Source: a virus. From it: a stretch of 64,000 nucleotides of DNA. A program made the position numbers and the translations under genes. The stretch is from positions 107,626-171,625 of the IMG/VR virus record IMGVR_UViG_3300043427_001127, one strand, 5' to 3'. Numbering within the stretch: the stretch's first letter is position 1; the number at the start of each line of letters is the position of its first letter. This document shows, piece by piece, positions 3,845-42,588 of this stretch. A model generated the notes under the pieces. That model had not been told where the DNA came from and searched no databases. It saw nothing but the letters and a program-made list of their open reading frames with translations.

Positions 3845-3975
3845 TTGGTACTCGTTAGGCAGATAGCCTAGAAGGAGACCAACTTATCACAAGCGCCTGG
3901 AGATAAACTTGTCTGCTGTGATACGACAGAGGGTAAGTCCCTGTTATATCCTTGAGGTATATCACACTTACTCCA
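3845..3975 (+). ncRNA. Unassigned structured spacer RNA between tRNA-Ser and tRNA-Pro
   Basis: Four consecutive hairpins plus possible GGGTAAGT/ACTTACTC pairing; no ORF. Confidence 0.45.
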
Positions 3976-6705: not shown

Positions 6706-7068
6706 GACACGGATGGTCTATAACAGAACTGGTGGAGTCAAGTTACCCTTTGAATGCTATGAACTTTCGTATTGTTGAGCAACTAGATAATAATGATGAA
6801 GTCATTACTTACTTTCAAGTTCATGAACTTGACAATGGTTATCATTGGGAGTATGATGGTGAGCAACATGGTCCTTTTGGGAACATGCAAGATGCAGTAG
6901 ATTCTGCATATGACAACTTAATACCTGTCTCGGAATGACACTAAACTTGCCCTGGTCGGGTGAACCCCCTTCTGGTTTCTTGTTTTCCCATTAAAAAACA
7001 AGTGGTGCGGATGGGACTCTCTCCCGCCCAGTTTCCTGCCTCTGGTCAAAGGGCAGGTGGCGAGCCGA
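6705..7068 (+). ncRNA. manA/wcaG-type modular cyanophage RNA (hairpin/pseudoknot modules followed by UGGYG), interrupted by an ORF
   Basis: Modules at 6705-6748, 6926-6969, 6973-7027, 7028-7068; two H-type pseudoknots; TGGTG/TGGCG motifs. Confidence 0.65.
6759..6938 (+). CDS. Acidic hypothetical protein lying between RNA modules
   Basis: MNFRIVEQLDNNDEV...GPFGNMQDAVDSAY; 59 aa. Confidence 0.6.
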   Translation: MNFRIVEQLDNNDEVITYFQVHELDNGYHWEYDGEQHGPFGNMQDAVDSAYDNLIPVSE

Positions 7069-7079
7069 GCAACGGGGGG

Positions 7080-7108
7080 TTGACATCCCCCACCCTCTCG
7101 GATATAAT
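7080..7108 (+). promoter_or_regulatory. Early promoter for tRNA cluster
   Basis: TTGACA-N17-TATAAT. Confidence 0.85.
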
Positions 7109-7119
7109 ATGAGGGTCAA

Positions 7120-7196
7120 CGCGGGATGGAACAGTCTGGTAGTTCAGCGGTCTCATAAGCCGCAGGTCGCAGGTTCAAATCCTGCTCCCGCCCCCA
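7120..7196 (+). tRNA. Initiator-type tRNA-fMet(CAT), CCA encoded
   Basis: C1:C72 mismatch, A11:U24, loop CTCATAA. Confidence 0.88.
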
Positions 7197-7197
7197 C

Positions 7198-7279
7198 GTC
7201 GCTGTGGCGGAATTGGTAGACGCGCTGGGTTTAGGTTCCAGTGAGGTAACTCGTGAAGGTTCAAGTCCTTTCAGCGACA
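7198..7279 (+). tRNA. tRNA-Leu(TAG)
   Basis: Class II cloverleaf, loop TTTAGGT. Confidence 0.95.
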
Positions 7280-7528
7280 TTGAGAAAGTGATCCTGCGGG
7301 TTCGCCCAAGAGCTCTCCTTTCTCAACTATCTGGCCAGGTAGTATAAAGTTAGCCTAGTCCGAGATTGGCACGGTCGTTATGATATGCTCAAACAGATTG
7401 CCTTTCGCAATCAAGCCTCTATCATCCCGTAACTTTAACCTGATTGGTTGAGTTGCAATCTCTCTTTAGGGGGAGAATGCTCAAAACTACATAGTATCGT
7501 AGCAGATATATAGTGTAGTAGCGAGCAC
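7280..7528 (+). ncRNA. Unassigned ~250-nt highly structured RNA between tRNA-Leu and tRNA-Gly
   Basis: Six domains incl. a three-way junction; no plausible ORF. Confidence 0.55.
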
Positions 7529-7530
7529 CT

Positions 7531-7602
7531 GCGGAGTTAGTTCAGCGGTAGAACGCTATCCTTCCAAGTTAGATGTCGTCGGTTCGATTCCGATACTCCG
7601 CT
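7531..7602 (+). tRNA. tRNA-Gly(TCC)
   Basis: Cloverleaf, loop CTTCCAA, U73; U30:U40 mismatch. Confidence 0.93.
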
Positions 7603-7624
7603 CTTATCCCTGAGGATAAATAAC

Positions 7625-7795
7625 ATGTCACTTATTTCACAGAGAGACAGACAAGTTGCCATCAGAGCACTTGAAATGTATGCTGCTGAGGCAGAAACTG
7701 CAGAGTATTATCTGGGGTCTTCGCATCACTCAGCATCTGAAATCAACGCATTACTTAACTGGATTAGATTAGAGTATTACAAACATGAAGATTAA
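7625..7795 (+). CDS. Hypothetical protein (56 aa)
   Basis: Manual translation MSLISQRDRQVAIRALE...LLNWIRLEYYKHED; ATAAATA upstream. Confidence 0.65.
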   Translation: MSLISQRDRQVAIRALEMYAAEAETAEYYLGSSHHSASEINALLNWIRLEYYKHED

Positions 7796-42288: not shown

Positions 42289-42320
42289 TCCCCACTAAAT
42301 AATGTGTAGTGGGAAATGTT

Positions 42321-42587
42321 ATGAAATACACATTATCTCAAGCATATGTCTTTTATATGGGTGAGGTTGTGCGTATGTATTTCATACAAGGTCTTCCTTA
42401 TACATTTGATGAACTTCCTCAAATAGTACAAGACCATCCTTCAGTTCAATCAGAAGCTCTTTCTCATCGTGACTACGATGACGAAGATATGTTTAACTGG
42501 TGCAACTATCTTGTTATGGAAGAAATGCACCCTTTAATGTTTGACATAGAAGTGGAAAACCCAGATTTACTCCCAAAAGACGAATAA
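42321..42587 (+). CDS. Conserved cyanophage hypothetical protein
   Basis: VRMYFIQGLPYTFDE...EEMHPL. Confidence 0.7.
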   Translation: MKYTLSQAYVFYMGEVVRMYFIQGLPYTFDELPQIVQDHPSVQSEALSHRDYDDEDMFNWCNYLVMEEMHPLMFDIEVENPDLLPKDE

Positions 42588-42588
42588 T

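What the first reader, a model, noticed from the sequence alone, without database searches (positions are those of the whole stretch)
7280..7528. Unassigned ~250-nt multi-domain RNA exactly filling the tRNA-Leu to tRNA-Gly spacer
Seen: nearly the whole spacer can pair. (1) TTGAGAAAG/CTTTCTCAA enclosing GGG-TTCG-CCC. (2) CTATCTG/CAGGTAG. (3) A three-way junction closed by TAAAGTTA/TAACTTTA, with arms GCC..AGTC/GATT..GGC and ACGG-ATGATA-GATTGC/GCAATC-TATCAT-CCGT. (4) GATTG/CAATC. (5) A TCTC/GAGA hairpin. (6) TGCTC-ACTACA/TGTAGT-GAGCA. There is no credible ORF, in a genome that is otherwise densely coding. Inference: a discrete ncRNA released by tRNA processing at both ends (decoy, sponge or anti-defence RNA). 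I do not recognise it as a known family.
Basis: partly seen in the sequence, partly recalled or inferred. Interest (0 to 1): 0.7.

Follow-up and report, generated by a model that had tools for sequence, protein, structure and literature searches.

The report
Phage tRNA-spacer RNA with permuted antitoxin
The 251-base gap between two tRNA genes of this cyanobacterial virus encodes a chain of small folded RNAs, and its conserved centre is a rearranged copy of the RNA that bacteria use to keep their AbiF suicide enzyme switched off, so it is probably a viral decoy against that defence.

Summary
The tRNA-Leu to tRNA-Gly spacer (7280-7530) of this T4-like cyanophage is real, non-coding, structured RNA. 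It is not one three-way-junction RNA.

Thirteen distinct homologues (12 of them in IMG/VR and JGI metagenome contigs, one in a GenBank AACY environmental record) show a string of hairpin modules:
- a swappable 5' hairpin, here a covarying stem presenting an invariant 29-nt interior that is also found beside tRNAs in 18 other phage records
- a constant small hairpin
- a conserved core (7379-7426)
- two variable hairpins
- a near-invariant 3' hairpin (7478-7527)

The core has all three helices and every junction letter of the abiF motif (Rfam RF03085), the RNA antitoxin of the AbiF HEPN abortive-infection toxin. The order is circularly permuted: open at P3, capped at P1. Rfam's model therefore misses it.

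Canonical abiF copies sit just before tRNA-Gly in related phages. This phage has no AbiF gene. Cyanobacterial plasmids carry AbiF genes with abiF-like leaders.

Best reading (about 45%): an early-transcribed decoy antitoxin released by tRNA processing. This scan had already noted orphan canonical abiF RNAs in other cyanophage tRNA arrays. The permuted form and the composite frame are new. There are no expression or binding data.

The parts
7080..7108 (+). Consensus sigma-70-type promoter (TTGACA, 17 nt, TATAAT; 12 of 12), 11 nt ahead of tRNA-Met. Likely start of the tRNA-Met / tRNA-Leu / spacer / tRNA-Gly transcript.
   Evidence: The same promoter was found by strict pattern ahead of the tRNAs in 8 of the 12 records with upstream sequence, the window included.
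7198..7279 (+). tRNA-Leu(tag), with no encoded CCA. Its 3' processing would set the 5' end of the spacer RNA.
   Evidence: Rfam tRNA 54.1 bits.
7280..7326 (+). Module A: a hairpin with stem 7281-7288 / 7318-7325 presenting an invariant 29-nt interior (7289-7317). It is a swappable 5' module.
   Evidence: The 30-mer is exact in 12 IMG/VR stretches and in phage DSL-LC02. An 18-mer core adds 5 more contigs. The stem has 5 pairs with changes on both sides and is 92.9% paired. It lies beside tRNAs in nearly all records. The homologous spacers carry other hairpins at this place.
7327..7342 (+). M2: a constant 6-bp hairpin with a GGCC loop.
   Evidence: Present in all 13 homologues. The changes keep pairing, but on one side only.
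7343..7378 (+). Linker with a weak hairpin (7353-7370). Conserved in sequence in one of the two clades only.
   Evidence: Alignment A1. Folds no better than shuffles (z +0.69).
7379..7426 (+). Conserved core: a circularly permuted abiF-like motif. P3 7380-7385 / 7420-7425; U 7386; P2 GCU 7387-7389 / AGC 7414-7416; bulge CAAACA 7390-7395; P1 7396-7401 / 7407-7412 capped by 7402-7406; single A 7413; CUC 7417-7419.
   Evidence: The MFE of the segment alone gives exactly this fold (65% of the ensemble, z -2.66). The junction letters are invariant in 13 sequences. P1 and P3 covary. The letters match the Rfam abiF consensus and the bona fide phage copy L020:2366-2402. The pattern occurs once in the window and 0 times in 100 shuffles.
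7429..7456 (+). Variable hairpin with a CCUGAUUGG top.
   Evidence: z -3.51 together with the next hairpin. The same top with different stems is seen in L163 and L090.
7459..7476 (+). Most homologues have a hairpin of unrelated sequence at this place.
7478..7527 (+). M5: a near-invariant 3' hairpin, three helices separated by internal loops. It starts with GCUCAAAAC and ends 3 nt before tRNA-Gly.
   Evidence: Alignment A2 has 90% column identity. It is 95% paired with one compensatory change and z -4.24. Its loop 15-mer co-occurs with the permuted core in 13 of 13 distinct sequences.
7531..7603 (+). tRNA-Gly(tcc). RNase P cleavage at its 5' end would set the 3' end of the spacer RNA.
   Evidence: 66.5 bits.

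Best explanation
The spacer encodes a composite small RNA, or a few small RNAs, made of hairpin modules. It is co-transcribed with tRNA-Met, tRNA-Leu and tRNA-Gly from a consensus host-type promoter. The host enzymes that mature the flanking tRNAs would cut it free: an RNase Z-type cut after tRNA-Leu and RNase P before tRNA-Gly.

Its conserved core (7379-7426) is a circularly permuted version of the abiF motif, the RNA antitoxin that binds and silences the AbiF (Abi_2, HEPN) abortive-infection RNase. The phage has the RNA but no toxin gene. The most likely role is therefore a decoy antitoxin: it would keep a host AbiF-type toxin inhibited while host transcription and the host's own labile antitoxin decline during infection.

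Shown: anatomy, conservation, covariation, likeness to abiF, absence of the toxin gene, and the presence of AbiF with abiF-like leaders in cyanobacteria.
Inferred: transcription, processing, binding, and the anti-defence effect.
For: 1. The core matches abiF letter for letter in permuted order.
- The Rfam consensus reads P1a-A-AGC-CUCU..AU-GCU-CAAAUC-P1b.
- The window reads P3a-U-GCU-CAAACA-P1b-loop-P1a-A-AGC-CUC-P3b.
- The bulge CAAACA is identical to that of the bona fide phage abiF in L020 (50.3 bits, above the gathering score of 37).

2. Conservation and covariation.
- The junction letters are invariant in 13 distinct homologues, while the stems change.
- One P1 pair shows CG, GC, GU and UG; another shows UA, CG and UG.
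- P3 shows GC to UA and UA to CG.
- 88-95% of cells are paired, against 20-37% when the partner is slid.
- G-U pairs fit only the + strand.

3. Same slot in related phages. Canonical abiF lies 4 nt before tRNA-Gly in S-CREM1 and L020. In IMG/VR, 114 canonical copies with an intact P1 were found: 70 are followed by a tRNA within 60 nt, and only 3 by an ORF of 250 aa or more.

4. In bacteria the motif sits 1-35 nt ahead of ORFs of about 300 aa. Six of 7 tested are Abi_2 at 182-204 bits.

5. This phage record (90% complete) has no Abi_2 gene and no canonical abiF.

6. AbiF occurs in unicellular cyanobacteria.
- It is on plasmids of Cyanobacterium aponinum, Synechocystis PCC 6714 (two plasmids) and B12, and Picosynechococcus PCC 73109.
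- The C. aponinum protein scores Pfam Abi_2 206.9 bits and matches PDB 8vz6 chain A at E 5e-43.
- Their leaders carry a three-helix abiF-like motif with a GNRA-capped, covarying P3. Rfam abiF scores 29.7 bits, E 0.022.

7. Literature: the abiF-motif RNA RCd22 neutralises AbiF in cis and in trans by direct binding (PMC12373285). AbiFr binds AbiF one to one, and bulge nucleotides inhibit the RNase (PMC12737573).

8. A consensus promoter lies at 7080-7108 and is conserved in homologues.
Against: - No expression, processing or binding data.
- Rfam's abiF model gives no hit, by design of the permutation. Membership therefore rests on my own alignment.
- AbiF was found only on plasmids of other cyanobacterial genera. 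I could not search Synechococcus or Cyanobium genomes, so the actual host may lack the target.
- The cyanobacterial leaders differ in P2 (AGG/CCU or CAG/CUG, against AGC/GCU) and in the bulge (CAAAUA or CAAAGA, against CAAACA).
- There are only 13 sequences in two clades, so several compensatory changes may be single events.
- The 3' hairpin M5 is more conserved than the core and is unexplained, as is module A. The main function could lie there.
- One scaffold (G001) seems to carry a canonical and a permuted copy in one spacer, which would argue against simple equivalence. Its junction is a run of 10 N.
Confidence: 0.45

Rival explanations
1. The RNA is a trans-acting small RNA or protein sponge, but its partner is not AbiF. 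The abiF-like junction would be recognised by another host or phage protein, or the conserved M5 and module A hairpins carry the real function.
For: M5 is the most conserved part: 90% column identity with invariant loops. It always accompanies the core. Module A presents an invariant 29-nt interior on a covarying stem in 18 other phage records, which is typical of a specific ligand or protein site. No AbiF has been shown in the real host.
Against: The only documented partner of this junction architecture is AbiF. Canonical abiF copies occupy the same slot in sister phages.
Confidence: 0.2
2. The spacer is a cis-acting processing and stability scaffold. The hairpins after and before the tRNAs would guide or block RNase E, RNase Z, RNase P and exonucleases so that the tRNAs mature correctly, with no function once released.
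For: Every homologous spacer starts with a hairpin at +1 after the tRNA-Leu discriminator, mostly UUG...CAA, and ends with a hairpin 3 nt before tRNA-Gly. The same grammar is seen after tRNA-Ser at 3845-3882 and in S-CREM1. The middle hairpins vary freely in sequence.
Against: Plain processing hairpins do not need 19 invariant junction letters identical to an antitoxin motif, nor an invariant 29-nt interior. Many tRNA pairs in the same array are 0-4 nt apart and need no such spacer.
Confidence: 0.2
3. The modules are DNA-level elements, that is, shuffling cassettes, recombination seams or remnants of mobile elements in the tRNA array. On this reading the RNA folds are incidental.
For: Modules are exchanged between otherwise collinear phages. 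In L173 a tRNA-like unit is inserted in the middle of the spacer.
Against: Compensatory changes and G-U pairs that are valid only on the + strand point to selection on RNA. No repeats of the spacer occur elsewhere in the genome.
Confidence: 0.07
4. One reading: one discrete RNA of about 250 nt with a three-way junction, riboswitch-like or ribozyme-like.
For: In the window sequence alone the helices TAAAGTTA/TAACTTTA and ACGG/CCGT can be drawn.
Against: The junction-closing helix has no partner in any of the 12 homologues. The MFE uses the 3' strand in a local hairpin instead.
Confidence: 0.04

Closest known systems
abiF RNA motif (Rfam RF03085; RCd22 of C. difficile, AbiFr), the RNA antitoxin of the AbiF / Abi_2 HEPN type III toxin-antitoxin and abortive-infection system
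   Same: Three helices with the same junction letters: a single A opposite a CAAA-type 6-nt bulge between P1 and P2; a 3-bp P2 of AGC/GCU; and CUC opposite U or AU between P2 and P3.
   Different: - The strand order is circularly permuted: the 5' and 3' ends are at P3, and P1 is capped.
- Rfam's model does not score it.
- No Abi_2 gene follows it or occurs anywhere in the record.
- It is embedded in a longer multi-hairpin RNA between tRNAs.
Orphan canonical abiF small RNA of cyanophages (S-CREM1, PMC9964418; many IMG/VR contigs)
   Same: Phage-encoded, without a toxin gene, inside the tRNA array, often directly before tRNA-Gly(tcc). The bulge CAAACA is the same.
   Different: Those are 37-nt stand-alone hairpins in the canonical order and are detected by Rfam. 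This one is permuted and is framed by the constant M2 and M5 hairpins. The two forms were never found together in the loci held, except in one scaffold with an N-gap.
Phage-encoded antitoxin mimics such as pseudo-ToxI of phage PhiTE against ToxIN
   Same: The proposed logic: a phage carries a copy of a type III RNA antitoxin, without the toxin, to escape abortive infection.
   Different: Different toxin family and RNA fold. ToxI mimics are tandem repeats, whereas this is a single permuted unit. No functional test exists here.
Phage T4 stable RNAs C and D (species 1 and 2) in the T4 tRNA gene cluster (from my own knowledge)
   Same: Non-tRNA stable RNAs encoded among tRNA genes of a T4-like phage, co-transcribed and released by tRNA processing. 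Their function is unknown.
   Different: blastn of the spacer against 50,697 phage records found only the module A match in DSL-LC02, so there is no sequence similarity. No abiF-like core is known to me in those RNAs.
manA (RF01745) and wcaG (RF01761) RNAs of T4-like cyanophages
   Same: Structured RNAs of unknown function in the same arrays. wcaG lies at 6971-7071 just upstream. manA directly follows tRNA-Leu in S-CREM1 and, in L077, fills the 3' part of the tRNA-Leu to tRNA-Gly spacer, ending at tRNA-Gly.
   Different: The spacer gives no match to either model even at E<=10, and the manA consensus words are absent.

Membership tests
abiF RNA motif (RF03085) | Scores at or above the family's gathering score (37 bits) with the Rfam covariance model | tested here: not met
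   No abiF hit in 7150-7650 at E<=10, nor in the whole phage record at E<=10. A linear model cannot align a circular permutation. It also scored true cyanobacterial AbiF leaders only 29.7 bits or not at all.
abiF RNA motif (RF03085) | P1 helix of about 6 bp flanking an asymmetric internal loop: one A on one strand, CAAA-type 6-nt bulge on the other | tested here: met
   P1 is 7396-7401 / 7407-7412, with A 7413 and CAAACA 7390-7395. P1 covaries (CG, GC, GU, UG; UA, CG, UG). The junction letters are invariant in 13 sequences.
abiF RNA motif (RF03085) | 3-bp P2 (AGC with GCU) next to loop letters CUC(U) and (A)U | tested here: met
   GCU 7387-7389 pairs with AGC 7414-7416. CUC is at 7417-7419 and U at 7386. 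P2 and CUC are invariant in all 13 sequences (A1; 12 of them in A3); the residue opposite CUC is U in one clade and A in the other.
abiF RNA motif (RF03085) | Linear topology: 5' and 3' ends at P1, distal end capped by a loop or a small P3 | tested here: not met
   GCU precedes AGC, P1 is capped by a 5-nt loop, and P3 is the open helix. This is the circular permutation.
abiF RNA motif (RF03085) | Lies just upstream of an Abi_2 (AbiF) gene | tested here: not met
   No Abi_2 match in the 171,625-bp record. In bacteria, 6 of 7 tested downstream ORFs are Abi_2. Most viral canonical copies are orphans too.
abiF RNA motif (RF03085) | Binds AbiF and neutralises its toxicity | not testable with these tools
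   This needs co-expression or binding assays. The literature basis is for the canonical motif only.
Phage-encoded type III antitoxin mimic | Antitoxin-like RNA in a phage that lacks the cognate toxin, while hosts of the phylum carry the toxin | tested here: inconclusive
   No toxin gene in the phage. AbiF with abiF-like leaders is on plasmids of 4 unicellular cyanobacterial genera. The genomes of the likely hosts could not be searched.
manA RNA (RF01745) | Match to the covariance model or its consensus words | tested here: not met
   No hit at E<=10. True manA copies score 97-117 bits in S-CREM1, L020 and L077.
Stable non-tRNA RNAs of T4-type tRNA clusters | Encoded between tRNA genes on the same strand, behind a shared promoter, with ends set by tRNA processing | tested here: inconclusive
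   Position, strand and promoter fit. Transcript ends are not observable.

The most novel reading that the evidence does not exclude
Cyanophage tRNA operons carry a modular anti-defence RNA cassette. Each swappable hairpin would be a decoy for a different host RNA-binding defence protein: module A, the UAGGC-AGAUA-GCCUA type, the GGAAAUAUUC type, the CCUGAUUGG type, and M5. The constant core would be a naturally circularly permuted AbiF antitoxin, which would show that the fold that silences the ancestor of Cas13 tolerates re-wiring. tRNA-processing enzymes would serve as the release mechanism.
Probability: 0.22. Interest if true: 0.8.

Novelty: new variant of a known kind. Interest (0 to 1): 0.6.

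Why it matters
AbiF is a widespread abortive-infection toxin and the proposed ancestor of Cas13. Its RNA antitoxin was only recently characterised.

A phage-borne copy without the toxin, in a permuted form that the curated model cannot see, has three implications:
1. RNA-based counter-defence may be under-counted in phage genomes.
2. tRNA arrays may act as delivery vehicles for decoy RNAs, using host RNase P and RNase Z to release them.
3. The essential part of the antitoxin would be the two internal loops held between three helices, not the strand order. That gives a direct design rule for minimal AbiF inhibitors.

The work also defines two further conserved phage hairpin motifs (module A and M5) that have no family and no known partner.

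Tried and rejected
- Rfam at gathering score and at E<=10: nothing in the spacer.
- blastn of the spacer against 50,697 phage records: only the 35-nt module A match in DSL-LC02.
- Further copies in the phage's own record: none.
- manA membership: rejected.
- Coding potential: rejected.
- Three-way junction: rejected on the homologues.
- M5 as a second permuted abiF copy. It shares GCU, a CAAAAC bulge and a capped helix. However, the opposite strand has a variable linker of about 5-7 nt instead of one A, and the plain hairpin with a 3x3 loop fits better. Left open, not claimed.
- Inner fold of module A. The MFE helix GGGUUC/GAGCUC is broken by the natural variants GAGCACUC and GAGAUCUC. A GAUC/GAUC alternative fits one variant only. 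Unresolved.
- Covariance model R1 of the permuted core, run over 77 sources (483 kb): only the known members.
- Pattern scans of IMG/VR with 15-17 specified bases: mostly chance hits, which had to be filtered by the P1 pairing.
- Genome scan for the canonical motif: mainly Bacteroidales, with no cyanobacterium among the rows shown.
- Reaching cyanobacterial genomes through the genome search: not possible from a virus record or a plasmid locus.
- Literature searches for AbiF in Synechococcus or for phage-borne AbiF antitoxins: nothing beyond the S-CREM1 note.
- The second long spacer of the window (42292-42588) appears to be coding, not RNA.

Full report
**Setting.** The window belongs to a 171,625-bp IMG/VR virus record. 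Its core genes are about 70% identical to those of T4-like Synechococcus myoviruses. ARAGORN and Rfam place 16 tRNA genes in the window. The local order on the + strand is:
- wcaG RNA, 6971-7071 (92.9 bits)
- a perfect TTGACA-17-TATAAT promoter, 7080-7108
- tRNA-Met, 7120-7196
- tRNA-Leu(tag), 7198-7279
- the spacer, 7280-7530
- tRNA-Gly(tcc), 7531-7603
- a conserved 56-codon ORF, 7625-7795

**Observation.**
- The spacer has no ORF of 25 codons or more in 7348-7536.
- It has no Rfam match at E<=10.
- It folds at -76.3 kcal/mol, z -2.83 on the + strand and -2.11 on the - strand.
- Folded piece by piece, four of five segments beat their shuffles: module A z -2.15, core z -2.66, two middle hairpins z -3.51, 3' hairpin z -4.24. 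The segment 7327-7378 does not (z +0.69).

**Homologues.**
- A relative of the downstream ORF was confirmed in 186 viral stretches. The best 80 were kept, as L018-L097.
- blastn of the spacer against them, pattern scans of IMG/VR and one metagenome scan gave 13 distinct homologous spacers.
- All 13 lie between tRNA-Leu(tag) and tRNA-Gly(tcc), where both flanks are present.
- Eight of the 12 records with upstream sequence (the window included) have the same consensus promoter.
- One homologue is a GenBank AACY environmental record (L417); the other 12 lie in IMG/VR and JGI metagenome contigs whose sampling sites I did not look up.

**Anatomy from the alignment.** The spacer is modular.
1. The 5' hairpin differs in kind between phages.
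   - The window has module A, whose 30-nt interior is exact in 12 IMG/VR stretches and in phage DSL-LC02. An 18-mer core is present in five more contigs.
   - It lies next to tRNAs in nearly all records.
   - The stem has five pairs changed on both sides.
   - The interior never varies, apart from two positions that break the predicted inner helix, so its fold is unresolved.
2. A small hairpin (7327-7342) is constant.
3. A core (7379-7426) is constant.
4. One or two hairpins of unrelated sequence follow in most homologues. In L173 a tRNA-like unit is inserted there.
5. A 3' hairpin (7478-7527) is nearly invariant: 90% column identity and 95% paired, with one compensatory change. It occurs only together with the core.

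- The junction-closing helix has no partner in any homologue.
- ACGG/CCGT is not conserved in most homologues (L203 keeps a 3-bp remnant).
- Helix 4 is displaced by a local hairpin whose CCUGAUUGG top recurs with other stems in L163 and L090.

**The core.**
- S-CREM1 and L020 carry a bona fide abiF RNA four bases before tRNA-Gly (52.2 and 50.3 bits).
- The Rfam consensus reads P1a, A, AGC, an 11-nt loop that begins CUCU and ends AU, GCU, CAAAUC, P1b.
- The window core reads P3a, U, GCU, CAAACA, P1b, a 5-nt cap, P1a, A, AGC, CUC, P3b.
- Every unpaired junction letter and the 3-bp P2 are the same. The bulge is identical to that of L020.
- Only the connectivity differs: the terminal loop is opened into a helix and P1 is capped. 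That is a circular permutation.
- It could arise from a tandem pair of motifs by loss of the outer halves. This origin is inference. RCd22 of C. difficile has such a tandem pair.

Evidence for the core fold:
- The segment alone gives exactly this architecture as its MFE, at 65% of the ensemble.
- P1 and P3 carry compensatory changes, and 88-95% of cells pair, against 20-37% in slid controls.
- Several pairs are G-U, which would be A-C on the other strand, so the RNA is read from the + strand.
- The motif pattern occurs once in the window and never in 100 shuffles.
- A covariance model of the permuted core finds only this lineage among 77 sources.

**Link to AbiF.**
- In bacterial genomes the canonical motif lies 1-35 nt ahead of ORFs of about 300 codons. 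Six of seven tested are Abi_2 at 182-204 bits.
- Published work shows that the abiF-motif RNA RCd22 neutralises AbiF in cis and in trans by direct binding (PMC12373285).
- AbiFr binds AbiF one to one, with bulge nucleotides blocking the RNase (PMC12737573).
- This phage has neither an Abi_2 gene nor a canonical abiF.
- In IMG/VR, 114 canonical copies with an intact P1 were recovered. Seventy are followed by a tRNA within 60 nt, and only three by a long ORF.
- Orphan, tRNA-embedded abiF RNA is therefore a general feature of these viruses. Earlier notes of this scan on other genomes said the same. I reached the abiF reading before that look-up and checked the generality myself.
- Canonical and permuted forms were never found together in the loci held. 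The exception is one scaffold whose junction is ten N.

**Do cyanobacteria have the target?**
- AbiF homologues lie on plasmids of Cyanobacterium aponinum PCC 10605, Synechocystis PCC 6714 (two plasmids) and B12, and Picosynechococcus PCC 73109.
- The C. aponinum protein scores 206.9 bits for Abi_2 and matches PDB 8vz6 chain A at E 5e-43.
- The four leaders examined (Synechocystis B12 was not fetched) hold a three-helix abiF-like motif: P1, one unpaired base (A, or C in pSYLA), P2, a P3 that is GNRA-capped and covaries in three of the four, P2', a CAAA-type bulge, P1'.
- Rfam abiF scores 29.7 bits, E 0.022, on two of the leaders and nothing on the other two.
- So the three-helix architecture is native to the host phylum. 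The phage RNA keeps all of it.
- I could not search Synechococcus or Cyanobium genomes. This is the main gap.

**Mechanism proposed.**
- Host RNA polymerase starts at the consensus promoter early in infection. This is inferred from the promoter type.
- RNase P cuts at 7530/7531.
- An RNase Z-type cut after the discriminator at 7279 frees the 5' end. Neither tRNA encodes CCA. This step rests on general knowledge of tRNA maturation.
- The released RNA, whole or cut further, presents the abiF-like junction to a host AbiF-type HEPN RNase. It would hold the RNase inactive when the host's own antitoxin RNA is no longer replenished.
- Modules A and M5 may serve other partners, or stability.

**Confidence.**

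| Claim | Confidence |
|---|---|
| The RNA is structured and modular | about 0.9 |
| The core is an abiF-type motif in permuted order | about 0.75 |
| It acts as an AbiF decoy | about 0.45 |

**Novelty.**
- The abiF motif and its antitoxin role are known, and an abiF sRNA was reported in cyanophage S-CREM1 (PMC9964418).
- I found no description of three things: a circularly permuted abiF, this constant M2-core-M5 frame, or module A.
- That is an absence within the library searched, not proof of novelty.

Noticed in passing
window 3845-3882: A second kind of post-tRNA hairpin follows tRNA-Ser(tga): an outer stem with a bulge enclosing UAGGC-AGAUA-GCCUA. The same module starts the Leu-Gly spacer in L027, L098, L077 and L090, and precedes module A in L001 and L008. 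The outer stem shows compensatory changes between the window and L027 (C-G to G-C, U-A to U-G).
   Followed up: partly
window 6971-7071: A wcaG RNA (Rfam 92.9 bits) lies directly upstream of the promoter and tRNA-Met. wcaG (57-103 bits) was found in the seven relatives scanned with Rfam where that position is held: S-CREM1, L019, L027, L029, L077, L090 and L098.
   Followed up: partly
L173:2463-2836: In this homologue a tRNA-like unit of about 70 nt (acceptor, D and T arms recognisable; not called by ARAGORN) is inserted between the permuted core and the next hairpin. The modules can therefore be separated by a further processing signal.
   Followed up: no
L549:380-840 (- strand; G001): One 4.7-kb viral scaffold shows tRNA-Leu, a hairpin, a canonical abiF, ten N, and then M2, the permuted core, M5 and tRNA-Gly. 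If the join is real, one spacer carries both forms, like the two motifs of RCd22.
   Followed up: partly
L426:327-371, L427:328-372, L428 about 327-371, L424:1135-1177: Cyanobacterial plasmid AbiF genes have abiF-like leaders. P2 is AGG/CCU or CAG/CUG instead of AGC/GCU. In the three Picosynechococcus and Synechocystis leaders P3 is GNRA-capped and covaries. All fall below or outside the Rfam gathering score, so the curated model under-detects this clade.
   Followed up: partly
window 7625-7795: A 56-codon ORF with no PHROG family has relatives in 186 viral stretches. It lies within about 100 nt downstream of a tRNA (Gly, Thr, Pro or Leu) in roughly half of the 80 loci held.
   Followed up: partly
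window 42292-42588: The other long tRNA-to-tRNA spacer of the window, Leu(taa) to Thr(tgt), contains an ATG-initiated open reading frame that ends at the spacer's 3' end. It is therefore probably coding, not a structured RNA of this kind; this was read by eye and not checked with the ORF tool.
   Followed up: partly
L163, L090 and window 7429-7456: Hairpins with the apical word CCUGAUUGG on unrelated stems recur at different positions of the tRNA arrays. They may be a further small motif.
   Followed up: no
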